64,000 nucleotides of DNA. Source: a virus (Duplodnaviria > Caudoviricetes). The stretch covers positions 64,001-128,000 of the IMG/VR virus record IMGVR_UViG_3300046786_000304; one strand, 5' to 3'. Positions within the stretch are counted from its first letter, which is position 1; every line of letters starts with the position of its first letter. This document shows, in pieces, positions 1 through 19,402 of the stretch. Under the pieces are notes generated by a model. It saw nothing but the letters and a program-made list of their open reading frames with translations. It was not told the DNA's origin and did not search any database. The position numbers were made by a program, and so were the translations under genes.

Positions 1-965
1 TCTTTGTTCATTTTATACCAGCGAAGCGTGTTCTTCAATGCTTCACGTAGTTCATATTTAGGTTTCCAGCCTAGAGCATTAATCTTTTCAGAACTTAATA
101 ATCTAACTGAAATCATAAATGCTTTGTTGTTAACGTACTCAATTGGATTGTCATTGTTGTCTAACTCTTTAAGCATGGCCAACACTTCATTGACTGTATA
201 ACCTTTGCCATAACTTACATTGTATACGTCGTGTTTGTCAACATTTTCTGCTACGAATACAATGCCTTCGGCCATGTCTTCAACGTGTAACAAGTCGCGA
301 ACGTCATTGCCATCTCCCCATACAGGAATAGGATTTAATCCGTCTGCTACTTTGCGAATACTTGCTGGCGTAACGTGGCATTTTTCATAGTCAAACTTAT
401 CATTAGGGCCAAACGCATTACTTGGACGAATAATAATACATTGCATTGGATTATGAATTTGATTACTGAAAAAGTCACATAAATTTTCACTGTAACGTTT
501 CATTCCGCCTACAGCTTTGTATACTGGAATTAAAGGTGTACCATTAGTGTCAATGCCTTCATGGCAAAATTCAGTGCCCATGTCTGGATATACAGTATTT
601 GAACTAATAAACACAAATTTCTTAACGCCATTGCGCCAGCTGTGTTCCATTAAGTTTGTATTCATTTCAATGTTAGGCGTTACGTGTAGCAATGGATTAA
701 ACTTAGTGTCTAAAGCATTACTAGTATTAGCCGCACAGTGAATAACAACATCAATGTCTTTGCTTACCTTTTCGCAGAATTCTGCTGTACGCAAATCACC
801 ATGGTGATTCTCTACTGTTTCCCATCCGTAAAAGTCTTTACGTAATGTTCTGCTATAAGTTGTACTGCGTACATTCTTATAACCTTTTTCAAATAATGTT
901 CTTAATATGTGGCTACCAATAAATCCCGATGCGCCTGTAACTAAAATTCTGTCTGTTTTTTGCAT
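1..965 (-). CDS. NAD-dependent epimerase/dehydratase, GDP-L-fucose synthase-like (truncated at window edge)
   Basis: Manually translated: MQKTDRILVTGASGFIGSH (Rossmann GxxGxxG), FVFISSNTVYP, IIRPSNAFGPND, VWGDGNDVRDLLHV. No stop before base 1, so it is absent from the ORF track. Confidence 0.85.
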   Translation of the reverse strand, partial: MQKTDRILVTGASGFIGSHILRTLFEKGYKNVRSTTYSRTLRKDFYGWETVENHHGDLRTAEFCEKVSKDIDVVIHCAANTSNALDTKFNPLLHVTPNIEMNTNLMEHSWRNGVKKFVFISSNTVYPDMGTEFCHEGIDTNGTPLIPVYKAVGGMKRYSENLCDFFSNQIHNPMQCIIIRPSNAFGPNDKFDYEKCHVTPASIRKVADGLNPIPVWGDGNDVRDLLHVEDMAEGIVFVAENVDKHDVYNVSYGKGYTVNEVLAMLKELDNNDNPIEYVNNKAFMISVRLLSSEKINALGWKPKYELREALKNTLRWYKMNK

Positions 966-966
966 T

Positions 967-1944
967 TTATTTTCCGATATAAGTTTCGATGGTCTTCTTG
1001 ATACCATCTCTTAGTGTAGTTCTTGGTAACATGTCATATTTACGTTGCTTATCCGCACTTAGACAGCGAACCGGGTCACCATTCATTTTTGTTTCATCCC
1101 AAACAATTTTCTTTTCTTCGCCACTGATTTCTTTATACACATCAATGATTGTTTCAATTGTTTCTTTAATACTAACTGCTGTGCCGCAACCAAAGTTAAC
1201 AATATCTTTGACTTCTTTAGTAACTGCGTCAATGCTGGCCTGTGCAACATCATCACCAAACACAAAGTCTCTGCGAGCACTGCCATTGCCCCAACATGTA
1301 ATGCTATCTCCGGGAACGTTCTTTAGTTTCCAAATGTTTGAACTAATAACTGTAGCATCTTCAGCAAAGTTATCATTGATACCATAAATGTTACTTGGAC
1401 GAATAACTGTCCAATTATCCCAGCCGTATTGTACTGTTAGAGATTCTAAAGTTGCTTCGCCCATGCGCTTGGTCCAACCTGGATACCAGTCATTCTTACT
1501 AGGTGTTGTTTTCCAAACATCATCTTCGTTCATTAGTTCAGCTGGCTGATAAACGCCCACGCTACTCAAGTATACAAACCAATCTACCTTGGCGTCAAAT
1601 GCTGCCTTAATCATGTTAGTGTTAAACATTAACATAGGGAACAAATAATCGCAGGGCTGTTTACTGCTACGTGCTGGACTGCCTTTGACTCCGGCAATGT
1701 GTAATACATAATTAATGTTCTTGCTTTTGAACAATTCTTCACAATTATGCAGATAAGTTAAATCACAGTTAACAAATTCTACGACGCTAGGATACTTGTC
1801 ACAGACTTCTTTAAGCTTGGGACTTTGTCTAATATCCACAGCATAAACTTTGCTGGCGCCTTGTTGTACGCTTTTTTCAACTGCTGGTACACCCACTAAT
1901 CCACTTGCACCTGTTATTAATACTACTTTGTTTTCAAATTTCAT
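967..1944 (-). CDS. NAD-dependent epimerase/dehydratase (extended SDR, GDP-fucose synthase-like)
   Basis: VLITGASGLVG, YLSSVGVY, YPGWTKRMGE, RPSNIYG, WGNGSARRDFVF. Start placed at the ATG overlapping the upstream TGA (ATGA). Confidence 0.85.
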   Translation of the reverse strand: MKFENKVVLITGASGLVGVPAVEKSVQQGASKVYAVDIRQSPKLKEVCDKYPSVVEFVNCDLTYLHNCEELFKSKNINYVLHIAGVKGSPARSSKQPCDYLFPMLMFNTNMIKAAFDAKVDWFVYLSSVGVYQPAELMNEDDVWKTTPSKNDWYPGWTKRMGEATLESLTVQYGWDNWTVIRPSNIYGINDNFAEDATVISSNIWKLKNVPGDSITCWGNGSARRDFVFGDDVAQASIDAVTKEVKDIVNFGCGTAVSIKETIETIIDVYKEISGEEKKIVWDETKMNGDPVRCLSADKQRKYDMLPRTTLRDGIKKTIETYIGK

Positions 1945-3386
1945 TTTAAATACCACTTTCTTATATCGTTAAATGTTTTATTAAATGGGTTATACTTACC
2001 AAAAGTCTTTGCATGATTTTGATTGTGTATTAACACATCCGTTAGCTGATAATATATATCATGTATTTCACTTAGTGGTAATACTGATAATCTATAAATC
2101 TCTGAGTTGATTAATTCAAATCTATTTCTATAATCTGTACATTCGTCATATGATTCGTCGATTAAAGGGCTAAATGTTTTAAATCCCAAATCCCGTAATG
2201 TTTTTAATGTAAACGGATTCCCTATCACTATAAATGGCTGTAAATTAATTATAGGGTGATGAAACGTTTTTTCGCTGATAAACGGAAAAGCCCCTCCGCC
2301 ATGTTCGAATGAAGTTTCACTTACAATATTAATATACGATTCAGCGAACAATGCTTTATTGTTGTTATTAAGATTAAAGCTGTGTTTCTGGTCCACAGGT
2401 AAATGCGCTGTATCAATTTCCATTGGAATATTTTCGACAATAGAATCAACAATCGATTCTAAATCATCGGGTTCTCCGGTAAAATGCGAGATTGTATTAT
2501 AGATTCTATGCTTATTAGTGTAATCATGTAATGCTACAAAACTAAAAATGCTGTCATTTAATAGTTTATATTTGAACGCCATGTACGCACTTAGCCAACG
2601 ATGTGGTCTGTGCATATTCCTATTCATACAAATAAACCTTTTACTGCGAATGTGATCGATATCTAAATCTTCTGGTTTAACATAATCAGACTTGTATCCC
2701 AATGATCCTACCCTGGGGTATTCGTGGAACTTGTCAGCTAATTGATTTAAAACAATGTATCCATTTGTTATTTTTATTTTACTGTCGGAATACATATCAT
2801 AATGACTGTCGAATGTATTGCCTCCGATTATAATAATATTTTCCCCAGAAATGCCGTGTTTGTTAAAATATTTTTCTATTTCTAGCAAGTTTTCAGAATG
2901 TTCCACTGGATCATGTATTACATTTAATACTAATTTGATATTGCCAGTTTGTAAACCCAATAATACTCTAGGATCTAATGTGTCAATGAATTCATAATTA
3001 TAATCAATTCCGTTCAATTTAATTGAATAATTACCGTAAATTAAATTTAAAGTAAAACAAATCTCAACAGGATAAAGGTATATGTCACCGTTATATACTA
3101 TTTCGTCAACTGTTACTATATTGTCAATGCCATAGTGAAGTTTGTAATAATTATAAAAGTTTTTATGAGAAATATGTGCCCGCCACGTAGACGATTCGTT
3201 CTGCGATTGTAATTCATCGACAATATTGCTTTGAAACGCAAACTCATTATCCTTAAGCTTGTCTAAGATATACTCATTTACCTGTGGCAATGAACCGTTT
3301 AAAAGAAACTCCTTGCCTTGATAATTGACATAGGAGTTACTGTAAACTAATTTTATATTGCGATTATAATTGTTGAATAAACTCAT
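1941..3386 (-). CDS. GT10 (fucosyltransferase)-like putative glycosyltransferase, paralog 1
   Basis: RFICMNR..HR and YINIVSET..FISEKT..PIINLQPFIVIG..GFKTF..IDESYD. This resembles the GT10 FENS..YITEK..VPIVLG nucleotide-sugar binding motif. Confidence 0.5.
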   Translation of the reverse strand: MSLFNNYNRNIKLVYSNSYVNYQGKEFLLNGSLPQVNEYILDKLKDNEFAFQSNIVDELQSQNESSTWRAHISHKNFYNYYKLHYGIDNIVTVDEIVYNGDIYLYPVEICFTLNLIYGNYSIKLNGIDYNYEFIDTLDPRVLLGLQTGNIKLVLNVIHDPVEHSENLLEIEKYFNKHGISGENIIIIGGNTFDSHYDMYSDSKIKITNGYIVLNQLADKFHEYPRVGSLGYKSDYVKPEDLDIDHIRSKRFICMNRNMHRPHRWLSAYMAFKYKLLNDSIFSFVALHDYTNKHRIYNTISHFTGEPDDLESIVDSIVENIPMEIDTAHLPVDQKHSFNLNNNNKALFAESYINIVSETSFEHGGGAFPFISEKTFHHPIINLQPFIVIGNPFTLKTLRDLGFKTFSPLIDESYDECTDYRNRFELINSEIYRLSVLPLSEIHDIYYQLTDVLIHNQNHAKTFGKYNPFNKTFNDIRKWYLK

Positions 3387-4773
3387 AAGATATCTTGTAT
3401 GGGTTAGTATCTTTAAAAGACGCAAAATGATTTCTATTATAGATTAAAATATCTTTCATCGAATAGTATAACTCATGCAATTCATTATGACTTAATGCGT
3501 TTAATTTTAATATTTCTTTTTGAATCATTTGCATTCTTGTCAAATAATCGGGTTCTAAATCATAACTCTCATCTATAAATGGACTAAATGTTTTAAAGCC
3601 CAAATTCTTTAATTGCTGTAGAGAACCAAAATCCCCGATCATTATAAATGGCTGTAAGTTAATAATAGGCCTGTATGTTTTTTCAGAGAAAAACGGACTA
3701 TTATCTATAGGGCCAAAGAAACTTGTTTCTGATATAATGTGAAAATATGTATCAGTGTACCATTCTTTTTTATTGTTGTCAGTTACAAAGCCTCTTTTTT
3801 CGTCAACTGTTAAATGATTGGTATCTATTTCATAGGGCATTATAGACATTAAGTCATTGAGCTCTTCATCGGTGATACGCGAACCCAACAATGATGTTAT
3901 GCTATCCCTGATATTATCAGGGCTGTCAGGAATATTAACAAAACTAAAGATGCTATTGTTTAATAGTCCATTCTTCAATGCCATATATGCTATATAATAT
4001 CTATGCGAACGCATGGATCTATTAAAGCAAAGAAACTTTTTTGGCCGCATTTTAGTAATGTCTAAATCACTGTCACGTACAATATCTGAAGTATATCCCA
4101 TTGATGTAGGTCTAGGGAAATCATCCATACAACGAGCTTGCTGTTGTAACGCTAGATTACCATAAGTGAATTTAGTTAGACTATCAGGAAAGTCTTTGGT
4201 ATGATTTAAAAACTTATTGCCAAATATAAACACTAAATTAGATTCACTGACTCCAAGTTTCCGCAATCGCAATTCTAATTCTCGTATACTAGGTGCGTAA
4301 TGGCAAGGATCTTGTATGTTACAAATAACTATTTTAATTCTATCTGCTTTTAAATGTTCAATGATTGGTTCTATTAAATCTTCAATGGAATACTCAACAG
4401 TATTGCCGTCTAAATCAATTGTTGTTTTGTCATTTAATGCGTTGATAGAAGTGGCTATTTCAATTGGAAATATATAAGTTGTATCTTTATCATTGACGTC
4501 TATGTCATATATAGGTATTATATTCTTTTCACCTATATTGTTCATAAAGTAATAATGAAAATTACCTAAGTTAAATGTTAAATTCCATCCAACTGAAGAA
4601 CTATTGCGTACTTCTTCGATACAACTATGCGGGTTTAATTCATTGATGTCAACGATATATTTTTTGTCAATGTGATTCATTACAACCTGCGGAATGCCGT
4701 TGCTAAAATAAATCTTTTCGCCATTACTCTTAGAATAAATGTGCGAGTATACTGCTTTTAAAATACGACCCAT
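3364..4773 (-). CDS. GT10-like putative glycosyltransferase, paralog 2
   Basis: KKFLCFNRSMRSHR; YFHIISET..FFSEKTYRPIINLQPFIMIG..GFKTFSPFIDESYD. Confidence 0.5.
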   Translation of the reverse strand: MGRILKAVYSHIYSKSNGEKIYFSNGIPQVVMNHIDKKYIVDINELNPHSCIEEVRNSSSVGWNLTFNLGNFHYYFMNNIGEKNIIPIYDIDVNDKDTTYIFPIEIATSINALNDKTTIDLDGNTVEYSIEDLIEPIIEHLKADRIKIVICNIQDPCHYAPSIRELELRLRKLGVSESNLVFIFGNKFLNHTKDFPDSLTKFTYGNLALQQQARCMDDFPRPTSMGYTSDIVRDSDLDITKMRPKKFLCFNRSMRSHRYYIAYMALKNGLLNNSIFSFVNIPDSPDNIRDSITSLLGSRITDEELNDLMSIMPYEIDTNHLTVDEKRGFVTDNNKKEWYTDTYFHIISETSFFGPIDNSPFFSEKTYRPIINLQPFIMIGDFGSLQQLKNLGFKTFSPFIDESYDLEPDYLTRMQMIQKEILKLNALSHNELHELYYSMKDILIYNRNHFASFKDTNPYKISYEFIQQL

Positions 4774-5387
4774 TTGCCTGTTCCATAATGTGGGAATTTA
4801 GATTTGTATTCATACCAGATAACATCTTCGGGAATATCACGCTTGTGATTCCATGTTGCTACTGTGGGAGTATTAGTTGATACTGCGTTATCTTCTACAA
4901 TGAAATATAAAGGCAAATTAAAGTTTCTAGCGTACTTGTGTACTTCATAAAAGATGCCGCTTTCAAAACTCATGTCCCCAATAAAACACCAAACTTTTTC
5001 ATCGCTGCCGCTGTCTTTAATTGATTGTGCAACACCTAAAGCAATAGATAAAGTTCCGCCAACAATAGCACTGGCGTAAAATTTATTGTCTAAATTACAT
5101 ATAGTAATGCTCTTACCAGCTAGGATATCTTGTTCAATAATTGCGGGATCAATGCCTTTGAGCAGTGCATGATAATGACTACGCCAAGTAGAAAATACCC
5201 AGTCTGTTGTTTTAATTCTTTTGAAGATTTCAATTAGCTGTTCTTCATTATTGTTTGACAAGTGTACAGGGCCGCGGATTTTAGCATTTTCCCAGTGGTT
5301 TACAATTTTATCTTCGAATGCTATTAAATCTTCTTTGGTCAAGCTAATTGGCCTTACAACTTCATATTTGTCAATATTTTTAATCAT
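4758..5387 (-). CDS. Thiamine-diphosphate enzyme, pyruvate dehydrogenase E1 alpha-like (short)
   Basis: RGPVHLS, WVFSTWRSHYHAL, ASAIVGG, and the ThDP motif FIGDMSFESG...IVEDN. Confidence 0.85.
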   Translation of the reverse strand: MIKNIDKYEVVRPISLTKEDLIAFEDKIVNHWENAKIRGPVHLSNNNEEQLIEIFKRIKTTDWVFSTWRSHYHALLKGIDPAIIEQDILAGKSITICNLDNKFYASAIVGGTLSIALGVAQSIKDSGSDEKVWCFIGDMSFESGIFYEVHKYARNFNLPLYFIVEDNAVSTNTPTVATWNHKRDIPEDVIWYEYKSKFPHYGTGKWVVF

Positions 5388-5395
5388 TTTTTTCC

Positions 5396-5956
5396 TTAGG
5401 GTTTAACAAGATACCAAAGTGTACCTGTAATTTTTGCTTTCTGATTGAACATTTCTTCCAATCTATGTACATTCTGATTTACGTCAGGAAATTCTATAGG
5501 GAGACCAGTGGTGTACGGAGTGTAATCGTGGCCTGCTACAATTCCTCCTGATTTAACAAAAGGAAGGAAATGTTCTATAATAGACCAGTCGCTGGGATTA
5601 TAATGTCCTGCATCAATGAAGAATACGTCTATTGGTCTTGGATCAGTGTAGCCAGCGTGTTCAGGAGTTAGTCCTCTAATTGGTATTATGTTTTTATATT
5701 CTGCTGTGTTCTTTTGAAACTCTTCCCATGTATTACACGGGTTTCCTTCGTGATCTGTTAATTCTTCGTAAAAAATATCAAAACAATATATAGTAACAGA
5801 AGGGTCTGCGCTCATTGCCCATGCTACAGAACTTTTGCCACAAAAACTTCCTACTTCCACTATAACGCCGACTTCAGGCACTGTTTTAGCCAATGATTCG
5901 ATTACTTGAAGTTCGTTTTCAAACATCCATCCTTTAATATCTAGTTTATATGGCAT
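5396..5956 (-). CDS. Class I SAM-dependent methyltransferase (Methyltransf_24-like)
   Basis: VEVGSFCGKS, DVFFIDAGH, VKSGGIVAGHDY. Confidence 0.85.
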   Translation of the reverse strand: MPYKLDIKGWMFENELQVIESLAKTVPEVGVIVEVGSFCGKSSVAWAMSADPSVTIYCFDIFYEELTDHEGNPCNTWEEFQKNTAEYKNIIPIRGLTPEHAGYTDPRPIDVFFIDAGHYNPSDWSIIEHFLPFVKSGGIVAGHDYTPYTTGLPIEFPDVNQNVHRLEEMFNQKAKITGTLWYLVKP

Positions 5957-5966
5957 ATTATTTTTC

Positions 5967-6512
5967 TCATCTATCTCTTGCTTGTAACACTGGCTTATCT
6001 GTAGGCCATTCTATGTTGAATTTACTGTCATTCCATTTGATTACGCCCTGTGCTTTTTCATCAACATAGTCGCCTTGATAAAACAGATTATAATGGAATA
6101 CACAATCTGTTAAGGCAAAGTGTCCGTTGGCGAAGCCAGGAGGAACAAGTACTTGGTCTCTAGTCTTTTCACTGATAATATAACTTTCCCACTTACCGTA
6201 TGTAGTACTGTTTTCTCTTACATCCATTACTACAAGATATATATCTCCAACTAAAGCCTGTACTAATTTCCAAGTCTTGTCGTCATAGTGTAATCCACGT
6301 AGCACGCCTTGATATGACTTGCTGAATCTGCCATGGATATTAACATCCTTGGGCAGTAATTTCATAACTGGATGTGTTTCGCTGTGAAACGTTGTGAAAA
6401 TTTCACCGCGATATTCTCTATAGACACTGGGGCTGTATACAGGAACATCTGTACCAAACTTAGCTAAGTATGATACATCAACATTATCCCATTGGGGCAA
6501 TTTATAATTCAT
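5967..6512 (-). CDS. rfbC: dTDP-4-dehydrorhamnose 3,5-epimerase
   Basis: YREYRG, SKSYQGVLRGLHY, VPPGFANGH, IKWND..IEWP: RmlC cupin signature. The ATG at 6512 was preferred over the GTG at 6536. Confidence 0.9.
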   Translation of the reverse strand: MNYKLPQWDNVDVSYLAKFGTDVPVYSPSVYREYRGEIFTTFHSETHPVMKLLPKDVNIHGRFSKSYQGVLRGLHYDDKTWKLVQALVGDIYLVVMDVRENSTTYGKWESYIISEKTRDQVLVPPGFANGHFALTDCVFHYNLFYQGDYVDEKAQGVIKWNDSKFNIEWPTDKPVLQARDR

Positions 6513-7938
6513 TATTTGTACCCCAAATTCTTTCACCCAAATAACTTATAAAATTTTCAGTTGTCTTATCTGTTTTGTATAATGTCAACAAATGTTCTCT
6601 ATTGTGTATAAGAATATCTTCCATGCCCCAATACCAACTATGTAATTGTTTTTTATTCATTTTACATAGTCTTTTAATTTCTGCGTGAACCATTGCTACT
6701 CGTTTTGAAGTGTCTTGTTCTAAGTCGTAGCTTTCGTCAATGAATCCCGTGAATGTTTTAAAGCCCATATCCCGCAATAGTTGTAATGCGCCTGGAAAAG
6801 ATATAAACAAGAAAGGCAAATAATTTCCTATAGGCTTGCATATCTTTTCAGTTACTGACTTGTAAGGACCTTCTGTATATGTTTCTGTACAGATATAAAA
6901 ATAAGCATTATTATATGAATCAACTTGAGTGTCTGTCCAGGAACTAACACTATTGAATGTATCATTGGGTTCGTCTTTTAACGACTTTGGCAACCGATTA
7001 AATAATCTTTTTACTTTTGCTTCAGTTAATTTAAATCCGTATTTTTCATTATACTCGTCTACTAGAGTATCATAATATTTGAAATCTGATAGCCAACTCC
7101 AATCTCCTTGGTCTAACAAGTTATCTTCATTTAATGCCAAGGCTAATGCTACTCTGTGCTCGCGAGAACGTCTTATTTTAAATAAGAAAGAATTTGGTCG
7201 TATCCTTTTAATTGATGATTGAAAGCGATCGAATTCTGTTCTGCCTTCCCGTGTCTGCATATAGAAGTAACTAGTATTGCTGATAACAAATGGCCAGCTT
7301 TTAACTATCAACATTCGTTCTTCTTCGGGGAACCATGACTTGTAAACTTCTTCGGCATTGAATGTATTGAACGCTAGTACAACTTGACTTTTTGGAATGC
7401 CGCTGTATTCTAATGCTGTATGTAAATTTTCATAGCTAGATTTCACAACAAAATTTTCCTGTCCGTAGTCAAGCACTATCAATGCTCGCCCTGAACGTGC
7501 ATCTTCTAATGCTTCCGTGGACATGAATTTCCAAAAGAAGTTACCTGCAATTTTTGTGTTGTTAAAGGCGGCTCCGTTAAAAGCATCAATGTGAGGACTA
7601 ATTTTTATAGGATATATGTATTTGTTATAACGCCTTTTTCCAAGATATAAACTTTCTTCTCTTGCGTCTACCAATTCCATACAAGGGCCTTGATTTAAAT
7701 GTGTACCAGGTGATGTATTAGGCCATGTACCAAAGCTTTTTCCAAACATAAAAGACAATACTGTATCAGTGTCTGATCCCATGGGAGATTGTTGTTCAAA
7801 TATACCCGAGTCTCTAACTGTAGTGGTATGCATGCTATGCATATAATTAATTATTCCTAGTTCAGGTTGTAGCGCATTTGCTAGCACTGAATTAGGAAAT
7901 ACATAATCGTATAATAAGGGTAGTGTTACTTTATCCAT
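6502..7938 (-). CDS. GT10-like putative glycosyltransferase, paralog 3
   Basis: FLFKIRR..HR; YFYICTET..VTEKICKPIGNYLPFLFIS..GFKTF..IDESYD. Confidence 0.5.
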   Translation of the reverse strand: MDKVTLPLLYDYVFPNSVLANALQPELGIINYMHSMHTTTVRDSGIFEQQSPMGSDTDTVLSFMFGKSFGTWPNTSPGTHLNQGPCMELVDAREESLYLGKRRYNKYIYPIKISPHIDAFNGAAFNNTKIAGNFFWKFMSTEALEDARSGRALIVLDYGQENFVVKSSYENLHTALEYSGIPKSQVVLAFNTFNAEEVYKSWFPEEERMLIVKSWPFVISNTSYFYMQTREGRTEFDRFQSSIKRIRPNSFLFKIRRSREHRVALALALNEDNLLDQGDWSWLSDFKYYDTLVDEYNEKYGFKLTEAKVKRLFNRLPKSLKDEPNDTFNSVSSWTDTQVDSYNNAYFYICTETYTEGPYKSVTEKICKPIGNYLPFLFISFPGALQLLRDMGFKTFTGFIDESYDLEQDTSKRVAMVHAEIKRLCKMNKKQLHSWYWGMEDILIHNREHLLTLYKTDKTTENFISYLGERIWGTNNEL

Positions 7939-8713
7939 TTAATAAACTGTTTATAAAAGCTTGATCATGTTTTTTTCTAAATTCATTGTTAAATTTTTGA
8001 CCCATTTGATTTTGGCTAGTGTGATCAAAATTTTTGTTACACTGGTCTACAAATGTTTTTGTTTTTGTAGTATTAAATCTAGGAAAAAACTCTGTAATGT
8101 ATTTAAGATAAACATTCGTACTTGGATGCCCGTCTGTGCGTTTTACATCTTCCCAGTACGGGCTATCAGTATACTGATTCTTTTCTTTCCATTTATCTAG
8201 CGTGATATTAACATCTAGCATTGAATAAATTTCATTAGCTAATGGTTTTATGCTGTCGTTTAATTTTGCGGTGCCGTCTATGTAAGCAGAATTATCTATG
8301 CCCATGACCATAACGTGCGGTATATCTTTTAACACTTTCTTAATCACTTTGGCAGCAATCCACGATTGGTAAACTGCCCAATTATCACTCCACATGTTTT
8401 TTACAAACTCTACTGTAACAGGGTTGTTAGTATTATAATTATAGCTGTGTAAATCGCCATATGTTTGCCAATTATTATCTTCGGGCAAGTAACTAAATCT
8501 ACCAAAGCCAGTTAACATTACTAGTACATAATCAGTTTTTGAATCGAACTTATATACTTCATCGGCTTCAACTATTTTGTTCATTATGAATGTATTTGAA
8601 CAGCCCGATCGACCATAGTTATAATACTCTTTAAAATTTACACCAATTAAATCTGCCCATGTGGCATACGAATAACTTGTATAACTACATCCAAACGCAA
8701 AACATCTTTTCAT
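7931..8713 (-). CDS. SGNH/GDSL-hydrolase-like protein 1
   Basis: FAFGCSYT (block I Ser), GRSGCSN (block II), C-terminal DGHPS. Confidence 0.6.
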   Translation of the reverse strand: MKRCFAFGCSYTSYSYATWADLIGVNFKEYYNYGRSGCSNTFIMNKIVEADEVYKFDSKTDYVLVMLTGFGRFSYLPEDNNWQTYGDLHSYNYNTNNPVTVEFVKNMWSDNWAVYQSWIAAKVIKKVLKDIPHVMVMGIDNSAYIDGTAKLNDSIKPLANEIYSMLDVNITLDKWKEKNQYTDSPYWEDVKRTDGHPSTNVYLKYITEFFPRFNTTKTKTFVDQCNKNFDHTSQNQMGQKFNNEFRKKHDQAFINSLLNG

Positions 8714-9597
8714 ATTATTTTCTTTACCAATGGAATTAACATATTATCACACCATACTCGATGTCCTTGCTGACTAGGGTGAAACCCATCCTGTGCAAAG
8801 TATTCCAGATTGTATTTATTTTGTAGATTTTTTCTTTCATCGTGTGATAACAAAATGGCATCATCTTCCATGACATTAATAAACTTATGCAAGTATTCGA
8901 ACATCCCTTGTTCAATTGTATTGGTTTTATCTAATTGTTTGAAGAGATAATTGACTATTTCATGATCTTTGTGGCGTTCAATGTCAGTATAAACATGTTT
9001 CATAAAAAATTGATTAATCAACTTAATGCTGTGTAACTTACAAAAGTTTTGAAGCATTACTATATTTTCCAAGCTTGAATGTGTTTTACCTACACCATTA
9101 ACTTCTTTGTCTAACATGTAATGTTGCTGTACAAATTCCAATTGGCTGTCGCTGCCATTAACAGTTAAATACCAACCGCCGTCTTTGTTATATTTGAATT
9201 CAGATCCGTTCTTAGTATAAAATACGCCATCGCCATTGATATCGTCGTTGGTAAGATTTAAAAACTGATGTGTCATTCCGCCATGAAAGTTTGGCCAATC
9301 ATTGACCATACGTTCTATTATTGTGGGATTATCAATGAACCAAGATTTGCGACTGGTGCCACTCCACATTACTGCTACTAATATCTCGCTGGCATTTAGT
9401 CCAGAATCTAATGCTGATATTATTGACGCACTAACACGCTTTTGTATAAGTTCTTGGCCACTGCTATTTCTACCAGTATGACTAGTTGTTAGACTAGGAT
9501 TTTGTTTACGTAAGAATTGAGTAAGACAGCCTACCCATCCGTTGTCGTCATCACCGGTACTAAAACTACATCCGCCGGTGATAAGATGTTTGATCAT
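8710..9597 (-). CDS. SGNH/GDSL-hydrolase-like protein 2
   Basis: ITGGCSFS, GRNSSGQ, C-terminal DGFHPS (DxxH). Confidence 0.6.
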   Translation of the reverse strand: MIKHLITGGCSFSTGDDDNGWVGCLTQFLRKQNPSLTTSHTGRNSSGQELIQKRVSASIISALDSGLNASEILVAVMWSGTSRKSWFIDNPTIIERMVNDWPNFHGGMTHQFLNLTNDDINGDGVFYTKNGSEFKYNKDGGWYLTVNGSDSQLEFVQQHYMLDKEVNGVGKTHSSLENIVMLQNFCKLHSIKLINQFFMKHVYTDIERHKDHEIVNYLFKQLDKTNTIEQGMFEYLHKFINVMEDDAILLSHDERKNLQNKYNLEYFAQDGFHPSQQGHRVWCDNMLIPLVKKII

Positions 9598-10256
9598 GGT
9601 ATTTGTATATTCTTAAGAAATGTTTTTACTTTCTTAGCCAAAGCAGAATGTGCTTTTTCATTGGGATGATACCCGTCACTACATTTCATTCCTTTGTTTA
9701 CACAATATACTTCATATACAGAAGTATTGTAGCCTAAGACAAATTTATTTGTTGGCAATAACTTAACCATGTTTTTATATTGCTCTTCGAATGGTTCTTT
9801 GTTTATTTCTTCTAAAAAAGAATTAATAAAAGCGTAGGGTATTTTCTTTGCTTCTAAAAAGGATGCTACGAATATTTGTTGTGTGTAATATTCCATCAAG
9901 CCTTCGTAGTCATTGTATACATGTTCGTACCAATGATCTTTCTTCTTTTTAAGATATGGATCTTCGGGCTCATAACCTAATAACACATTTTCCCATTTTT
10001 TAAATTCTGGGTGATATATTGCTGTACGGGAAAGTCCAGTCCAAGAAAACAGCACCAATACTTGTTCTGGATTTTCTATATCAGCAAAATCGTTGAGTAA
10101 ATTAATTATGCTGAGTTTGTTTGAGCCACCTGGAATACCTTTGTTAACAACTGGCAGTTTCATTGACTTGCCCAATTTAGCAGGCCACGCATCCTCAGAT
10201 GCTACACCGTCGCCAGATGTAAAGCTATCTCCGTATGCGTAAATCTTGTCAATCAT
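9594..10256 (-). CDS. SGNH/GDSL-hydrolase-like protein 3
   Basis: YAYGDSFT, NKGIPGGSN, DGYHPNEKAH. Confidence 0.7.
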   Translation of the reverse strand: MIDKIYAYGDSFTSGDGVASEDAWPAKLGKSMKLPVVNKGIPGGSNKLSIINLLNDFADIENPEQVLVLFSWTGLSRTAIYHPEFKKWENVLLGYEPEDPYLKKKKDHWYEHVYNDYEGLMEYYTQQIFVASFLEAKKIPYAFINSFLEEINKEPFEEQYKNMVKLLPTNKFVLGYNTSVYEVYCVNKGMKCSDGYHPNEKAHSALAKKVKTFLKNIQIP

Positions 10257-11694
10257 TTTCCTTATATACCCCGGTCTCAGCAAAAGTAATTCCAGACTGT
10301 TCTACTAACTTGACAACTTCATATTTTTTATTAAGTTCTATGCTTTCATACCAGTCGGCAATTTCTGGAAATGTATTAACTATGTTTTTGTTTCTTCTAG
10401 CATCATACTGTGAATAGAAACTTTTGAAGTCATGGAATAATGCTGTCTTATCATGTGTTGTAGATACGTGTCCAGTTTGTACAACTTCAAGATAATCAAT
10501 TAATCGTTTAATGCTGGCTTTTTCTCCAGCTTCTAAATACTGACTATGCTCGTGTTTGTTATACCAAGCAGATAGTTTTGCGTGTACTTCGTCTTTGAGA
10601 TCGTTGGGTAGCGTAACTGGACTCATGTATGCGGGCCAGCGTAGAATATTTAAATCCAAATAAGGTCTATTGTTGCCATATTTTTGTTTAAGTTCCAACA
10701 TATCGTCCATGAACTCTGTGATACTAAACAGGCACAGGTTAGATATAGTCATCATGATTGTGACATTTCTAAACTTAGCATTTTCGATAAAGTTAACTAG
10801 ATTACTGCGCCATACTTTATAGTCCATACCGTCACGTAAATACTCTGCGTGTAAGCCAAAGCTTTCGTTGCTAGTAAACAAATCAAACTCTTTAACTGGC
10901 AATGTCTTAGTTACTTCAATTAATCGTTCCAATGCTCGTGGACTTGAGCCTAGGTTACTGTTAACTGCAAAGCGCATATCCAAGTATTCATTCTTTTCTG
11001 TGATGATATCAATAAAGCGCCAAAAGTTTTGACTAACTGTACACTCACCGCCAGTGATGCGTAGTTCTTGCAAGCTCTTAGACAAGTCGGGCCACCATTC
11101 AAAGAAAGCCTCTACATAAGGATTGTCGTCTAAATGACGTCCATATGCTGTACTCCAAGCACCATCAGTTTGATATGCGCCACCTCCGCCGCCTTCGGCA
11201 ACAAAGTTTTGATAAGGACCATTCTTGGCAATATCATAACTCCATGTTGTACTGTAACCTGCGTTACAGTAACTACAAGCAAAGTTACATTGTCTATCAA
11301 AGCTAATTTCTAATGTTTTAAGATTAACATCATCAGCCCAGTTCATTGACTGAATCTTTTTAATATCTTCTGCGCTGTATATAATACTTTTATTAATGCG
11401 ATCGCTGATGTTGTTTCTACCAATGCCTTCTACTTTCCAGCAATAACCGCACTCTGCCGGCTTTTTACCTTCCAGCATCATTTTACGCATACGCTTTTTA
11501 TGATCAGTGTTATGCAAACCGCTGGGGTTGTAACTGATTTCACTAACGTCAATTGGATGAGGCAAAGGTAAGTGACAGCTACCGGTATAACCAGACCCTA
11601 AAAAGATACTGGCATTATACCACTTAGCCGCACAAAAGCTGGGACTAATTGAATTGAGATTTTCATCTCTCCATTTAATTAAGTCATCAGACAT
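10249..11694 (-). CDS. Radical SAM protein with N-terminal twitch-like Cys cluster
   Basis: CNFACSYC triad, RITGGEC, N-terminal FCAAKW..SCH..ECGYCW. Confidence 0.9.
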   Translation of the reverse strand: MSDDLIKWRDENLNSISPSFCAAKWYNASIFLGSGYTGSCHLPLPHPIDVSEISYNPSGLHNTDHKKRMRKMMLEGKKPAECGYCWKVEGIGRNNISDRINKSIIYSAEDIKKIQSMNWADDVNLKTLEISFDRQCNFACSYCNAGYSTTWSYDIAKNGPYQNFVAEGGGGGAYQTDGAWSTAYGRHLDDNPYVEAFFEWWPDLSKSLQELRITGGECTVSQNFWRFIDIITEKNEYLDMRFAVNSNLGSSPRALERLIEVTKTLPVKEFDLFTSNESFGLHAEYLRDGMDYKVWRSNLVNFIENAKFRNVTIMMTISNLCLFSITEFMDDMLELKQKYGNNRPYLDLNILRWPAYMSPVTLPNDLKDEVHAKLSAWYNKHEHSQYLEAGEKASIKRLIDYLEVVQTGHVSTTHDKTALFHDFKSFYSQYDARRNKNIVNTFPEIADWYESIELNKKYEVVKLVEQSGITFAETGVYKEND

Positions 11695-13264
11695 CTTTGT
11701 TAACTACCTTTTGTTTCATTGCTTTACAAATGTTATAAAATTCTGTGTACTCTGGATATACTTCTAAAAAGTTTGTACCATAGCGACGATCCAAGTCATT
11801 GACAAAGTCATAGAACTTAGCACGATTTAATGTAAAGTCTTTGTTACCTTCAAAATCATTCTTTGAGTTGTAAGCAATGTTCAAACATACACGTTTGAAT
11901 TTTTCAAGCTCAAACTCTTCAAACGCATGATGCATCTTCCAAGTCTTAGTCTGTGTTGTATGATCCGCCATATAGTTAATACTTGGCAACAAATACTCTT
12001 GGATAAGATCTTTACTGGCCCACTGTGCGTCCAAGAATGTTGGATTACGCAAGTAAGGCAAGTCAATGCCATTGATACTAGGATGACTTGTAGTCTTTTT
12101 ACTTCTATCTGTATATGACTCTCCGGGATAGGCAAAGTTAAAGCCTGTGTCCTTTTCCCACATGTCAGCAACAACTGGGTTAGGATTATATTTCTTTCTA
12201 AGTTCTAGTTGCCATTCAAACAATTTTTGTATACTGGAAATACTTAGAATGTTAAATGTAACCATCGTAGTAATTCTAATATTACCCATGGCCATAATCT
12301 GTTCGTAACGCTTACAGAACTTTTCAAAGTCCAAGCCTGGACGCAGATATTCGGCACGTTCGCCCCAACCATCTACACTGGTAAAGATAGTTAACTTCTT
12401 AATGTAATTGCCGCGGCTTAGGATCTCAGCACGTTCAATGAACTTGTCCCATAACTTGTCAGGTACACCCATGTTCGTATTGATACTAAGTTCAAGTTCA
12501 GGATTTGGATTTTCAATGAACCAATCCATACTTCTATAAGTTTCTTTACTAAGCAAAGGCTCGCCGCCTGTGATACGGAATACATGTAAGTGTTTGTAAG
12601 CTTCTGGCCACCACTTCCAAAATGCGTCAATGTAAGGATTGAATTCGTTGTTCTTATAACTTAGACTGTCTAAGTCCTTTTGCCAACCTTGTGCCCATAG
12701 AGTATGGTCTGTATTTTCTAATAGCTTAACAGGACCGTTTTGTTTTAGTTCCTCAACCCATTTACTGCTATACTCAGGACCGCAGTAAACGCATTTAAAG
12801 TTACATACGTTGCTAAAGTCTACTTCCAAATAACTTGGGTAAAAGTCTTGACTAGGATCACTGGCTTGAATCTCGTCATGCTTTTCCAATGCCCATGGCT
12901 CTAAACTCTTGTAAAATCTATCACTGGGACTTTTGTTATCTTCTACACGCCAGCAGTAGTCGCATTCTTTGGGACGCTGGCCCTCCATCATTTCTCTTCT
13001 TGCTTTTCTTAATATGCCGGTGTTAAACAATGCGCCAGGATTACGTTGAATTTCCTCTAATGGAATCTTATGTGGCACCGGGTGGTGACAACTGTGTGTC
13101 ATACCAGTACCCAAATGCATGGTAACTTGTGTAAATTTAGCAAGGCAAAATCCAGGACCTGTACTATCTAATAATTCTTTTGTTTTATCGATATTCGGTC
13201 CAGTACGGGCTACTTTTTTATCGTAGCCGATATCCCAGTTAATATCGCTGAGTTTCTTTTTCAT
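11687..13264 (-). CDS. Radical SAM protein with N-terminal twitch-like Cys cluster (paralog)
   Basis: CNFKCVYC, RITGGEPLL, FCLAKF..SCHHP..ECDYCW. Confidence 0.9.
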   Translation of the reverse strand: MKKKLSDINWDIGYDKKVARTGPNIDKTKELLDSTGPGFCLAKFTQVTMHLGTGMTHSCHHPVPHKIPLEEIQRNPGALFNTGILRKARREMMEGQRPKECDYCWRVEDNKSPSDRFYKSLEPWALEKHDEIQASDPSQDFYPSYLEVDFSNVCNFKCVYCGPEYSSKWVEELKQNGPVKLLENTDHTLWAQGWQKDLDSLSYKNNEFNPYIDAFWKWWPEAYKHLHVFRITGGEPLLSKETYRSMDWFIENPNPELELSINTNMGVPDKLWDKFIERAEILSRGNYIKKLTIFTSVDGWGERAEYLRPGLDFEKFCKRYEQIMAMGNIRITTMVTFNILSISSIQKLFEWQLELRKKYNPNPVVADMWEKDTGFNFAYPGESYTDRSKKTTSHPSINGIDLPYLRNPTFLDAQWASKDLIQEYLLPSINYMADHTTQTKTWKMHHAFEEFELEKFKRVCLNIAYNSKNDFEGNKDFTLNRAKFYDFVNDLDRRYGTNFLEVYPEYTEFYNICKAMKQKVVNKDV

Positions 13265-13273
13265 TTTTTGCCT

Positions 13274-14245
13274 TTAATTTATGCTGTTATCTACTTGGCT
13301 CTCTTTAACTAGAGCGCCTAACCTGGGAGGGTTAATAAAACTTTCTTTAAACATGCGACTGCCATTAAAATCTAATTCTGCAATCTCTAAATTTAAATTT
13401 GTGCGTAGTTCTTGACCAAACTTGTAAATTTCTTTTTTCAATTTCTCTGGATCATAGTTCCATCCAGTGGCATTACATCTTCCGCCTTCTCCCTCGAACT
13501 GCGGTTTAACACTATTTTCCCAGAACTGATCATGCCAGTCAAAATCTCTACAAGCTGTAAAATCAAAACTATCTTTAGCCAAGTTAGTTAGATATGCGCC
13601 TAGTCTAGTTCCAAACATTGCCCAATGTCCGTTCTCTACATCAGCACCTACACTTGACCATACCAAGAAACGTTTATAGTTACGCTCATGAACTTGTTCT
13701 TTAAGACGACGCGGATCCACTGTTACACCGCCACTGAGTAACAGTTTAACGCCTTCGCGGAATCCAGCTCTGTATGCTTGGTAAGCACTGGCATTATTGT
13801 GTACATCACAGTAGATATTATTCATTTGGAAGTAATAGATATCCCAACAGAAATCAACTTTGGCTTTTGGATCATCTGCGTTTTCATGTGTACGCATTTG
13901 TTCGACTACATGCTTGGGCCACATCTTAATACCGCCATTGCCGTAGACTAATCCATTGATAACATTCTTGCCGGCCCAACTAACAATATCATGTTTGCCT
14001 ATCTTGCTCATGTCTAATTCTAAACTAAAGAATTCATCACGAACAATGTTGTCGGCATCGATGGTAATAAAGCGATCTGTTTCTGCTACTCTGGCTGCTT
14101 CTTTGTGTGCGTTATCGAAACCTTTAACGCCATGAACACGTTTAGCCCATGGTGCTTTTTCTAATAGGTTTGCATAATTCTTATCTGCGTTTGGTTCGTC
14201 GTAGCTTAAAAATACGATATCAAAACTTGTAATAGGTACTGACAT
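13274..14245 (-). CDS. Putative GT-A fold glycosyltransferase
   Basis: DIVFLSYDE N-terminus, RVHGVKG..AHKEAA, FITIDADN (DxD). Confidence 0.6.
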   Translation of the reverse strand: MSVPITSFDIVFLSYDEPNADKNYANLLEKAPWAKRVHGVKGFDNAHKEAARVAETDRFITIDADNIVRDEFFSLELDMSKIGKHDIVSWAGKNVINGLVYGNGGIKMWPKHVVEQMRTHENADDPKAKVDFCWDIYYFQMNNIYCDVHNNASAYQAYRAGFREGVKLLLSGGVTVDPRRLKEQVHERNYKRFLVWSSVGADVENGHWAMFGTRLGAYLTNLAKDSFDFTACRDFDWHDQFWENSVKPQFEGEGGRCNATGWNYDPEKLKKEIYKFGQELRTNLNLEIAELDFNGSRMFKESFINPPRLGALVKESQVDNSIN

Positions 14246-17260: not shown

Positions 17261-17289
17261 CCAGAGCTCCATTATGTGCTATTTTAATT

Positions 17290-17297
17290 TATTTATA
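17290..17297 (-). promoter_or_regulatory. T4-type late promoter TATAAATA heading the glycan operon
   Basis: Exact TATAAATA in the intergenic gap, and a gp55-like sigma factor is encoded in this window. Confidence 0.75.
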
Positions 17298-17311
17298 TCA
17301 CAAAACAGCAA

Positions 17312-19368: not shown

Positions 19369-19391
19369 GTATCGAAATTCCTTTAATATAA

Positions 19392-19399
19392 TATTTATC
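19392..19399 (-). promoter_or_regulatory. Late promoter-like GATAAATA
   Basis: Intergenic, upstream of a ribosome-binding site-like AAAGGA and the ATG at 19368. Confidence 0.55.
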
Positions 19400-19402
19400 T
19401 AA

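What the first reader, a model, noticed from the sequence alone, without database searches (positions are those of the whole stretch)
4758..5387. Stand-alone short E1-alpha ThDP enzyme inside a sugar operon: possible branched-chain sugar synthesis
The 209-aa E1-alpha-like protein has an intact ThDP motif but sits among deoxysugar genes, with no E2 or E3 genes in the window. Precedent: ThDP enzymes add a two-carbon branch to 4-keto sugar nucleotides (YerE for yersiniose; AviB1/AviB2 for the avilamycin eurekanate unit). Inference: this is not a central-metabolism gene but makes a C-acetyl-branched sugar. A beta subunit is predicted beyond the left edge.
Basis: partly seen in the sequence, partly recalled or inferred. 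Interest (0 to 1): 0.6.

Follow-up and report, generated by a model that had tools for sequence, protein, structure and literature searches.

The report
Minimal two-part thiamine enzyme in phage
A T4-like phage carries a pared-down two-gene thiamine-dependent enzyme inside a heptose-sugar tailoring operon, probably to add a carbon branch to an activated sugar; this short form is widespread in phages, SAR11 bacteria and tiny uncultured microbes, and I found no study of it.

Summary
The ORF is real: window 4758-5387, minus strand, 209 aa. It holds only the diphosphate-binding (PP) domain of a 2-oxoacid dehydrogenase E1-alpha, with the ThDP/Mg motif intact. It is not stand-alone.

- **Pairing:** the two genes co-occur in at least 75 of 80 related phage loci. 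They are adjacent in about 50 of 58 cellular loci (SAR11, Patescibacteria, DPANN and others). They are fused in cyanophages S-SM2 and P-TIM68.
- **Not a dehydrogenase complex:** the 233-kb phage record holds no E2, lipoyl or transketolase-C domain.
- **Context:** the neighbours are not generic deoxysugar genes. They are orthologues of the Campylobacter GDP-heptose module: a Cj1427-type C4-dehydrogenase (53-55% identity), a Cj1430-type epimerase and Fcl-type reductases.

Best reading, inferred and untested: a minimal ThDP carboligase adds a 2-oxoacid-derived C2 unit to GDP-4-keto-heptose. This would be a new short variant of the AviB1/AviB2-type sugar-branching enzymes. First-stage notes of this scan flag the same module on other phage genomes.

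The parts
4758..5387 (-). alpha-short: the PP (diphosphate-binding) subunit of a minimal two-gene ThDP enzyme. Its Pyr partner (beta-short, 180 aa) lies outside the window at G000:C1:61229-61771 (-) = L005:17229-17771 (-).
   Evidence: Pfam E1_dh 8-169/300. AF2 pLDDT 95 with an E1-alpha PP fold. GD...N motif and H42/H200 invariant. Partner found; co-occurrence; fusion.
5967..6536 (-). Cupin epimerase of the Cj1430/MlghB/DdahB type (GDP-4-keto-heptose 3- or 3,5-epimerase).
   Evidence: Best PDB hits are C. jejuni GDP-D-glycero-4-keto-D-lyxo-heptose epimerases (E about 1e-38), against 1e-23 for true RmlC. PDB identities checked in PMC7949155. Present in 75 of 80 related phage loci.
5396..5956 (-). 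Class I SAM methyltransferase (Methyltransf_24), lying between the epimerase and alpha-short genes; rare among related phages.
   Evidence: Pfam 9e-14. Homologue found in only 2 of 80 related phage loci.
967..1956 (-). Fcl-like SDR (329 aa): candidate C4 or side-chain ketoreductase.
   Evidence: Best PDB and NCBIfam hits are GDP-L-fucose synthase, below the curated cut-off. Present in 70 of 80 phage loci.
3..1007 (-). Second Fcl-like SDR (335 aa). Its stop lies at the window edge. The next gene downstream, outside the window, is the Cj1427 orthologue (L005:19041-19976, -).
   Evidence: Present in 79 of 80 phage loci. Cj1427 orthology of the neighbour.
3364..4773 (-). One of three paralogous 469-494-aa proteins with no Pfam match: candidate glycosyltransferases. 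It overlaps the alpha-short stop by 16 nt.
   Evidence: ESM Atlas: nearest clusters are all viral; GT10 only at 0.76-0.77, a lead at most.
1941..3425 (-). Paralogue 2 of the candidate glycosyltransferase family (494 aa).
6502..7938 (-). Paralogue 3 of the candidate glycosyltransferase family (478 aa).
17290..17297 (-). T4-type late-promoter-like TATAAATA box at the head of the minus-strand gene array that contains alpha-short.
   Evidence: Only 3 copies in the window against 10 expected. The next minus-strand copy sits just 3' of the beta-short stop (L005 17219-17226).

Best explanation
The 209-aa protein is the PP (diphosphate-binding) subunit of a minimal two-subunit thiamine-diphosphate enzyme. 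Its partner is the 180-aa Pyr subunit encoded seven genes downstream, apparently in the same late transcription unit. Together they would form the usual PP:Pyr active site, probably as an alpha2beta2 assembly like E1. They lack the C-terminal third of E1-alpha and the E2-docking C-terminal domain of E1-beta, so the pair works as a free enzyme and not inside a dehydrogenase complex. [quoted passage not shown] The Cj1427-type dehydrogenase oxidises it at C4, and the Cj1430-type cupin may epimerise C3/C5. The ThDP enzyme decarboxylates a 2-oxo acid, most likely pyruvate, and adds the resulting C2 carbanion to the sugar carbonyl, giving a C-acetyl branched heptose nucleotide. An Fcl-like SDR could then reduce the new ketone to a 1-hydroxyethyl group. 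The product would then be methylated and transferred by the adjacent methyltransferase and glycosyltransferase-like proteins. Shown here: the domain content, the conserved cofactor and catalytic residues, the alpha-beta partnership, and the heptose-module context. Inferred: the donor, the acceptor position, the product and the final glycan target (virion or host surface).
For: Partnership. The only Transket_pyr ORF in the record lies 2.2 kb left of the window on the same strand. A beta homologue is found within 10 kb in 70 of 80 phage loci, and in 5 of 5 further records when the whole record is searched. The two genes are adjacent, with 60-100 nt gaps, in about 50 of 58 cellular loci. They are fused in S-SM2: residues 1-199 are 40% identical to alpha and residues 231-398 are 30% identical to beta. 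They are also fused in P0138, P0217 and P0241.

Catalytic competence. Alpha keeps GD...N, R69/H71 and H42/H200. Beta keeps the N1'-activating Glu (E59, aligned to the PLCEQ motif of BCKDH E1-beta) and H128. Intein-bearing homologues exist.

Not a dehydrogenase complex. The record has no E2, lipoyl or TKC domain.

Context. The neighbouring SDR is a Cj1427 orthologue (E=3e-103, 53-55% identity, TM 0.93-0.96). There is a Cj1430-type epimerase and Fcl-type reductases. The biochemistry of these Campylobacter enzymes is in PMC10680097 and PMC7949155. Cellular loci add GmhA-like, GHMP kinase and NTP-transferase genes.

Precedent. E1-alpha/beta-type (alphaKADH2) pairs add a pyruvate-derived C2 branch to keto sugars (PMC4753412, PMC12247030). 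Full-length pairs sit in the same order (keto-sugar-forming SDR, alpha, beta, DegT) in Dehalococcoidia and Bathyarchaeia glycan loci.
Against: There is no biochemical evidence for any member of the short clade, and I found no paper on it. The short forms are a separate clade (100/99 support) from the full-length glycan-locus pairs. They lack the E1-alpha C-terminal region which, from my knowledge of E1 structures, carries a catalytic His, so the chemistry may differ. If C4 becomes a tertiary alcohol, the two conserved Fcl-like C4 reductases need another role. The cyanophage fused clade has a Zn-ADH and no Cj1427 orthologue next to it. Only 23 of 58 cellular loci show a Cj1427-like gene within 7 kb. 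Kinase fusions and neighbours (APH fusion P0206; GHMP kinases) leave room for a substrate that is not yet nucleotide-activated. The record has no nucleotidyltransferase, GHMP kinase or DegT gene and is only 65% complete.
Confidence: 0.55

Rival explanations
1. The pair is a transketolase- or DXS-like enzyme that builds an unusual sugar phosphate before nucleotide activation, for example a ketol or acetyl transfer to an aldose phosphate. It would not act on the GDP-4-keto sugar.
For: The domain order PP then Pyr in the fused forms is that of the transketolase/DXS superfamily. There is a weak DXP_synthase_N match. Cellular and cyanophage loci carry GmhA-like, kinase and nucleotidyltransferase genes. 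One homologue is fused to an APH-type kinase (P0206).
Against: The phage record has no GmhA-type partner set: no GHMP kinase and no nucleotidyltransferase. Yet it keeps alpha and beta together with the GDP-heptose C4-dehydrogenase, epimerase and reductase set in 70-79 of 80 loci. Pfam's best match is E1_dh, not Transketolase_N. SAR11 loci already carry a separate split transketolase.
Confidence: 0.15
2. The pair is a ThDP carboligase on a nucleotide sugar, but with different regiochemistry or a different donor. Examples are side-chain extension (C7 aldehyde or C6 ketone), C3 branching, or transfer of a hydroxyacetyl or longer acyl unit that radical SAM methylases then elaborate.
For: Known branching enzymes use C3 or C4 and several donors (PMC12247030). 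B12-radical-SAM genes often follow beta in cellular loci, and one is fused to beta (L112:4807-6843). The phage array holds nine radical SAM genes. Retention of two C4-reductase-like SDRs fits a C4 carbonyl that is not consumed.
Against: Nothing in the sequence data distinguishes this from C4 acetylation. The phage radical SAM proteins are not close to the cellular B12-type ones.
Confidence: 0.2
3. It is a remnant or auxiliary copy of the pyruvate or acetoin dehydrogenase E1 component that acts in host central carbon metabolism.
For: Source databases name homologues 'pyruvate dehydrogenase E1 alpha' or 'acetoin oxidoreductase alpha'. The best PDB hits are PDH E1-alpha.
Against: Only 162 of 300 E1_dh profile positions are matched, and the score is far below the equivalog cut-off. 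Beta lacks the E2-binding Transketolase_C domain. The record has no E2 or lipoyl protein. The genes are invariably embedded in glycan loci. The length is conserved at about 209 aa across thousands of homologues, so this is not a truncation.
Confidence: 0.03
4. The pair cleaves rather than forms a C-C bond: a lyase or decarboxylase acting on the alpha-hydroxy-ketone of the 4-keto sugar or on a keto-acid sugar, in the manner of acetoin-cleaving AcoA/AcoB.
For: GDP-4-keto-heptose carries an acyloin motif (C3-OH next to C4=O). Acetoin-cleaving E1 enzymes belong to the same superfamily (PMC12247030).
Against: Cleavage would open the pyranose ring and destroy the glycosyl donor, in an operon otherwise full of tailoring and transfer genes. 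I know of no precedent in glycan pathways.
Confidence: 0.05

Closest known systems
alphaKADH2-type sugar-branching E1-alpha/E1-beta pairs (AviB1/AviB2 of avilamycin, Pau11/Pau12 of paulomycin, the aldgamycin pair, KbDH-alpha/beta of kibdelomycin)
   Same: Both are two-gene PP plus Pyr ThDP enzymes of the E1 lineage. Both are encoded beside the enzyme that makes a keto sugar nucleotide, without E2 or E3. For the known pairs, a pyruvate-derived C2 unit is added to the ketone (PMC4753412; PMC12247030). Uncultured Dehalococcoidia and Bathyarchaeia glycan loci show the same gene order with full-length pairs.
   Different: The known pairs are full length: alpha about 330-345 aa with the whole E1_dh domain, beta about 326 aa with Transketolase_C. 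They come from actinomycete antibiotic clusters. Here alpha is 209 aa and beta 180 aa, identity to full-length glycan-locus alphas is only 28-31%, and the short forms make a separate clade. The hosts are phages, SAR11, Patescibacteria and DPANN, and the likely acceptor is a GDP-heptose. No characterised AviB1 or KbDH sequence could be put in the tree.
YerE and YerE-like enzymes (yersiniose, erwiniose, caryophyllose)
   Same: Both are ThDP-dependent enzymes in cell-surface glycan loci, and YerE adds a 2-oxoacid-derived unit to a nucleotide-4-keto sugar.
   Different: YerE is a single chain of about 560-580 aa from the decarboxylase superfamily (Pyr-TH3-PP order, flavoprotein). The present pair belongs to the E1/transketolase lineage (PP then Pyr). 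SAR11 loci carry an ALS/YerE-like 559-aa gene in addition to the short pair.
Heterotetrameric E1 (alpha2beta2) of pyruvate and branched-chain 2-oxoacid dehydrogenase complexes (PDB 1NI4, 1W85, 1DTW, 1UM9)
   Same: The PP fold is the closest structural match (TMq 0.70). The diphosphate/Mg motif, the catalytic Glu of beta and a His in beta are shared.
   Different: The alpha C-terminal third is missing. From my knowledge of E1 structures, that region carries the regulatory loops and a catalytic His. The beta C-terminal E2-binding domain is also missing. There is no E2, E3 or lipoyl partner.
Campylobacter jejuni GDP-heptose diversification module Cj1427 (MlghA), Cj1430 (MlghB) and Cj1428 (MlghC)
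   Same: The genes around alpha-short are orthologues or close homologues: the C4-dehydrogenase at 53-55% identity, an epimerase whose best hits are the heptose epimerases, and Fcl-type reductases.
   Different: No ThDP enzyme is named among the C. jejuni heptose-pathway enzymes: 'thiamine' occurs 0 times in PMC10680097. The phage and SAR11/CPR modules add the alpha/beta pair, which implies a product class not described for Campylobacter.
Split transketolase and DXS
   Same: The order PP then Pyr is shared, and split or fused gene variants occur in both.
   Different: There is no Transketolase_C domain and no Transketolase_N match. The context is nucleotide-sugar tailoring, not pentose-phosphate or isoprenoid metabolism.

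Membership tests
2-oxoacid dehydrogenase E1 alpha subunit (PDH/BCKDH/acetoin DH) | Full-length E1_dh domain that reaches the curated family score | tested here: not met
   Pfam E1_dh covers only positions 8-169 of 300. NCBIfam TIGR03182 scores 79.8 bits against a cut-off of 393.85. Foldseek TM normalised to the target is only 0.41.
2-oxoacid dehydrogenase E1 alpha subunit (PDH/BCKDH/acetoin DH) | ThDP/Mg-binding motif GDG-x(25-30)-N(N) | tested here: met
   G137-D138-M...N167; G137, D138 and N167 are invariant in 27 diverse family members; aligned to human E1-alpha.
2-oxoacid dehydrogenase E1 alpha subunit (PDH/BCKDH/acetoin DH) | Beta partner with a Transketolase_C domain, plus an E2 (lipoyl acyltransferase) to receive the acyl group | tested here: not met
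   Beta is 180 aa with Transket_pyr only. PF02780, PF00198 and PF00364 are absent from the 233-kb record. The record is 65% complete.
alphaKADH2-type sugar-branching E1-alpha/beta pairs (AviB1/AviB2-like) | Separate PP and Pyr subunits encoded together in a nucleotide-sugar locus, next to a keto-sugar-forming SDR | tested here: met
alphaKADH2-type sugar-branching E1-alpha/beta pairs (AviB1/AviB2-like) | Full-length E1 architecture and membership of the same clade | tested here: not met
   The short forms make a 100/99-supported clade apart from the full-length glycan-locus pairs, and the architecture is truncated.
alphaKADH2-type sugar-branching E1-alpha/beta pairs (AviB1/AviB2-like) | Pyruvate-dependent C2 transfer to a keto sugar | not testable with these tools
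   Needs an enzyme assay.
YerE-like (decarboxylase superfamily) branching enzymes | Single chain with TPP_enzyme_N, TPP_enzyme_M and TPP_enzyme_C domains | tested here: not met
   Only a marginal TPP_enzyme_C hit (21.9 bits) and no N or M domain. A true example for comparison is L091:12025-13704.
Transketolase / DXS | Transketolase_N or DXP_synthase_N PP domain, a Pyr domain and a Transketolase_C domain | tested here: not met
   DXP_synthase_N gives only 27 bits over 68 residues. There is no Transketolase_N match and no TKC domain in the record.
Cj1427-type GDP-heptose C4-dehydrogenase (neighbouring gene, sets the context) | Close sequence and fold identity to Cj1427 | tested here: met
   phmmer E=3e-103 against 6VO6. 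Foldseek gives 53-55% identity and TM 0.93-0.96; the next PDB hit is at 23% identity. Activity not tested.

The most novel reading that the evidence does not exclude
The short alpha/beta pair defines an uncharacterised, very abundant class of minimal ThDP carboligases. With a Cj1427-type dehydrogenase, they would make C-branched higher-carbon sugars from GDP-heptose (a branched nonose, perhaps lengthened further by radical SAM methylases). T4-like phages would use these late in infection to decorate their own virions or re-coat the host. SAR11, Patescibacteria and DPANN cells would use them for their surface glycans.
Probability: 0.35. Interest if true: 0.75.

Novelty: new variant of a known kind. 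Interest (0 to 1): 0.62.

Why it matters
If the prediction holds, three things follow.

- **Smallest known ThDP carboligase of this lineage.** The enzyme would be the smallest known in the E1/transketolase lineage: about 390 aa in all, PP plus Pyr only. A 2025 review (PMC12247030) notes that no structure exists for ketone-accepting alphaKADH2 enzymes. It points to viruses as an unexplored source.
- **A new product class.** The well-studied Campylobacter GDP-heptose pathway would gain a new class of branched products.
- **A lead for phage and surface-glycan biology.** It would identify a specific, assayable chemical step in the large and unexplained glycan/radical-SAM islands of aquatic T4-like phages. 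The same step would apply to the hypervariable surface-glycan regions of SAR11 and of ultra-small bacteria and archaea. Such glycans are thought to govern phage recognition.

The family is large: about 7000 clusters at 90% identity matched the query at E<=0.001, a count that may include full-length E1-alphas up to 366 aa. Databases routinely name these proteins 'pyruvate dehydrogenase E1 alpha', which would mislead counts of auxiliary metabolic genes.

Tried and rejected
- **No close phage relative:** megablast of window 1-20000 against GenBank phages found nothing.
- **Alignment too diverse:** the 27-sequence alignment could not seed a genome scan. A closer 8-sequence alignment worked.
- **Phosphonopyruvate or sulfopyruvate decarboxylase (split Pyr/PP enzymes):** rejected. 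The best Pfam match is E1_dh and the fused relatives run PP then Pyr.
- **Pseudogene or truncated PDH:** rejected. Length and residues are conserved across thousands of homologues, and the fold is confident.
- **Link between phage and cellular radical SAM genes:** the phage's nine radical SAM proteins have no close match to the B12-type radical SAM genes that follow, or are fused to, beta in cells. That link is shown only for cellular loci.
- **GT10 identity of the three paralogues:** the ESM Atlas gives only 0.76-0.77, so this is a lead and not a result.
- **Literature:** searches for the PDB codes, for heptose plus thiamine, and for phage E1 genes found no paper on the short family. The Cj1427 structure paper (PMC7509852) is not held, so the identity of 6VO6 was confirmed from the PDB title through Foldseek.
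- **Host inference:** the alpha tree does not place the phage clade inside SAR11 or any other cellular group, so no host can be inferred from it.
Full report
**Observation**

The ORF at window 4758-5387 (minus strand) encodes 209 aa. It starts at an ATG preceded by AAGGA. It overlaps the next gene by 16 nt and follows the previous one after 8 nt, so it sits in a tightly packed co-directional array.

- Pfam matches E1_dh at E=1e-12, but only over profile positions 8-169 of 300.
- The NCBIfam PDH E1-alpha equivalog scores 79.8 bits against a cut-off of 393.85.
- The ThDP/Mg motif reads G137-D138-M ... E165-D-N167.
- An AlphaFold2 model built on 27 family members is confident (pLDDT 95.2, pTM 0.91).
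- Its best PDB matches are human and Geobacillus PDH E1-alpha and BCKDH E1-alpha (E 2.6e-12). TM is 0.70 normalised to the query and 0.41 normalised to the target.

The protein is therefore the PP domain of an E1-alpha and little else.

This is not a truncation artefact. A search of 5.8 billion clustered proteins gave 6987 hits, and the best 120 are nearly all 208-215 aa at 75-96% identity. An exhaustive search of 50%-identity representatives found 116 clusters at E<=1e-30, mostly 190-250 aa.

**Where it sits**

The window is bases 64001-128000 of a 233,464-bp IMG/VR virus record that CheckV estimates as 65% complete. The window also encodes a portal, a major head protein, a gp5-like baseplate hub, gp46/47-like nuclease subunits and a DNA ligase. 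It is a T4-like myovirus.

**The partner**

The only Transket_pyr match in the record is a 180-aa ORF at G000:C1:61229-61771, minus strand (= L005:17229-17771). It lies 2.2 kb left of the window edge and seven genes downstream of alpha-short. It consists of the Pyr domain alone. Transketolase_C, the E2 catalytic domain and lipoyl domains are absent from the whole record.

Against solved E1-beta chains it keeps the Glu that activates ThDP: PVMEE aligns with PLCEQ of human BCKDH E1-beta. It also keeps a His in the PGxQH motif. Both residues are invariant in 19 diverse beta-short sequences, as E59 and H128.

In alpha-short, H42, G137, D138, N167, H200 and G202 are invariant. R69, H71 and E165 are more than 90% conserved.

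**Evidence that the two genes work together**

1. *Phage loci.* Eighty related viral loci (69-96% identity) were fetched. A beta homologue lies within 10 kb in 70 of them. In five records where it seemed missing, a search of the whole record found it just beyond the fetched flank. The other five are cut contigs or a duplicate of a record already checked. The spacing ranges from 0 to about 9.5 kb, and the genes are adjacent in L073, L082, L085 and L039.
2. *Cellular loci.* In 74 loci from species-representative prokaryote genomes, the two genes are adjacent with 60-100 nt gaps in about 50 of the 58 loci with at least 38% identity. These genomes include Pelagibacter/SAR11, Patescibacteria, DPANN and other archaea, Omnitrophota, Chloroflexota and Desulfosudaceae.
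3. *Fusions.* In cyanophages S-SM2 and P-TIM68 the two are one protein, annotated 'transketolase central region-containing protein'. S-SM2 residues 1-199 match alpha-short (40% identity, 1e-53) and residues 231-398 match beta-short (30% identity, 4e-19). Further fusions of about 400 aa exist (P0138, P0217, P0241).

A maximum-likelihood tree puts all short and fused alphas in one clade (100/99 support). That clade is separate from six full-length alphas, five of them from glycan loci (L149 is an Enterococcus gene whose context was not examined). The phage sequences form their own clade (100/99). The fused forms fall in at least two places, so fusion happened more than once.

TATAAATA, the T4 late-promoter box, is depleted in the window (3 copies against 10 expected). 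One copy heads the minus-strand array at 17290-17297. The next minus-strand copy lies immediately 3' of the beta stop. Alpha and beta therefore probably belong to one late transcription unit; this is an inference.

**What the neighbours are**

They are more specific than that.

- **C4-dehydrogenase.** The SDR just left of the window (L005:19041-19976) matches PDB 6VO6/6VO8 at E=3e-103. A model of it superposes on those entries with TM 0.93-0.96 at 53-55% identity, and the next PDB hit has 23% identity. The entry title names Cj1427 of Campylobacter jejuni. [quoted passage not shown]
- **Epimerase.** The cupin at 5967-6536 hits the C. jejuni GDP-4-keto-heptose 3- and 3,5-epimerases at about 1e-38. 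These are 8DCL, 8DB5, 7M14 and 7ANG/7AN4/7ANI (the last three being DdahB/MlghB per PMC7949155). True RmlC scores only 1e-23.
- **Reductases.** The two SDRs at 967-1956 and 3-1007 are GDP-fucose-synthase-like, the family of the heptose C4 reductases.
- **Conservation.** This set is conserved with alpha and beta in the phages: 78, 75, 70 and 79 of 80 loci. A Cj1427-like gene lies within 7 kb in 23 of 58 cellular loci.
- **Cellular additions.** Cellular loci add GmhA-like SIS proteins, GHMP kinases and nucleotidyltransferases. I infer that these supply the GDP-heptose. They also add DegT aminotransferases, GT1 and GT2 transferases and Wzx flippases.
- **Missing from the phage.** The phage record has no nucleotidyltransferase, GHMP kinase or DegT gene. 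It would therefore start from a host nucleotide sugar.

**Mechanism proposed**

The module makes a nucleotide-linked 4-keto sugar and carries a complete but minimal ThDP active site with no acyl acceptor protein. ThDP enzymes of the E1 lineage are known or proposed to decarboxylate pyruvate and add the C2 unit to keto sugars. Examples are AviB1/AviB2, Pau11/Pau12 and the aldgamycin pair. For KbDH-alpha/beta this was shown in vitro with ketone analogues (PMC4753412; PMC12247030).

Full-length pairs occur in uncultured Dehalococcoidia and Bathyarchaeia glycan loci. The order there is 4,6-dehydratase-type SDR, alpha (345 aa), beta (326 aa with TKC), DegT. That parallels the order seen for the short pairs.

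I therefore read alpha-short plus beta-short as a carboligase that puts a 2-oxoacid-derived C2 unit on GDP-4-keto-heptose. One of the Fcl-like SDRs may then reduce the new ketone. Tailoring and transfer by the neighbouring genes would follow.

The partnership, the cofactor site and the context are shown. The donor, the position attacked and the product are inferred.

**Caveats**

- The short clade is distinct from the full-length pairs. It lacks the E1-alpha C-terminal region which, from my knowledge of E1 structures, carries a catalytic His. The family-specific invariant H200 may or may not replace it.
- Two conserved C4-reductase-like SDRs are hard to place if C4 becomes quaternary. They may serve a parallel unbranched heptose, reduce the branch, or indicate another point of attack.
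- The cyanophage fused clade sits beside a Zn-dependent alcohol dehydrogenase and heptose-activation genes, with no Cj1427 orthologue nearby.
- One homologue is fused to an APH-type kinase.

These points keep a transketolase/DXS-like role on a non-nucleotide substrate, or a different regiochemistry, as live rivals. A role in central metabolism is effectively excluded.

**Comparison and novelty**

The closest known kind is the alphaKADH2-type sugar-branching pair. This is a shortened variant in a different biological setting: phages and the surface-glycan islands of SAR11, Patescibacteria and DPANN. The likely substrate, a GDP-heptose, also differs.

I found no paper describing it in the held library. 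Pelagimyophage genomes are reported to carry LPS-type genes and radical SAM cassettes in the tail-fibre hypervariable region, without mention of this enzyme (PMC7029224).

First-stage notes of this scan flag the same module on this genome and on other phage genomes. Those notes are unverified, and I used them only as pointers.

Noticed in passing
L112:4807-6843 (+), archaeal MAG SI048_bin8: A natural fusion of beta-short (Transket_pyr) with a B12-binding radical SAM enzyme (678 aa). Stand-alone B12-radical-SAM genes of about 490 aa directly follow beta in many cellular loci, for example L116, L121, L129, L130 and L131. This suggests methylation is coupled to the ThDP step.
   Followed up: partly
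P0146, P0158 (homologues from the representative search): Alpha-short homologues of about 550 aa interrupted by inteins (Intein_splicing/Hint and LAGLIDADG domains). In P0158 the E1_dh match stops at residue 121 and the Hint/intein domains begin at about residue 145-155.
   Followed up: partly
P0206 (552 aa): An APH-type phosphotransferase domain is fused N-terminally to alpha-short, hinting at a phosphorylated substrate in some lineages.
   Followed up: no
L091, L094, L100, L103 (Pelagibacter/SAR11 loci): These SAR11 glycan islands carry three different ThDP enzymes side by side: the short alpha/beta pair, a full ALS/YerE-like 559-aa enzyme, and a split transketolase (about 265 plus 300 aa).
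   Followed up: partly
window 10249-13264 and L005:645-12292 (G000 44645-56292): Nine radical SAM genes, several with SPASM domains, flank the sugar module in this phage. They have no close match to the cellular B12-type radical SAM genes linked to beta.
   Followed up: partly
window 7931-10283 (-): Three tandem proteins with GCS/GDS N-terminal motifs. The third matches GDSL lipase and DUF6071; the first two have no Pfam match. They are possible sugar O-acyl transferases or esterases.
   Followed up: no
window 1941-3425, 3364-4773, 6502-7938 (-): Three paralogues of 469-494 aa share a C-terminal LGFKTF..IDESYD block and have no Pfam match. Their nearest ESM Atlas clusters are all viral. Resemblance to GT10 fucosyltransferases scores only 0.76-0.77.
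   Followed up: partly
L005:15604-17076 (-) and L005:17219-17226: A carbamoyltransferase (NodU/CmcH type, 490 aa) lies downstream of beta-short, on the far side of a TATAAATA box that sits just 3' of the beta stop.
   Followed up: no
L086 (CAIMCP010000084.1) and L087 (VHCC01000006.1): Contigs filed under Saccharibacteria and Pelagibacterales MAGs carry alpha-short at 75% identity with the phage gene order. They are probably phage DNA binned into the MAGs.
   Followed up: no
window 5396-5956 (-): The Methyltransf_24 gene between the epimerase and alpha-short has homologues in only 2 of 80 related phage loci, and at other positions there. It is rare among these phages.
   Followed up: partly
L134, L136, L138, L140, L142, L143: In a sister group of the cyanophage fused clade, a conserved gene of about 256 aa with no Pfam match is associated with the pair. 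It lies between alpha and beta in L142, upstream of the pair in L134, L136 and L143, and after alpha in L138. An rSAM-SPASM gene follows in L134, L136, L138, L140 and L142.
   Followed up: no
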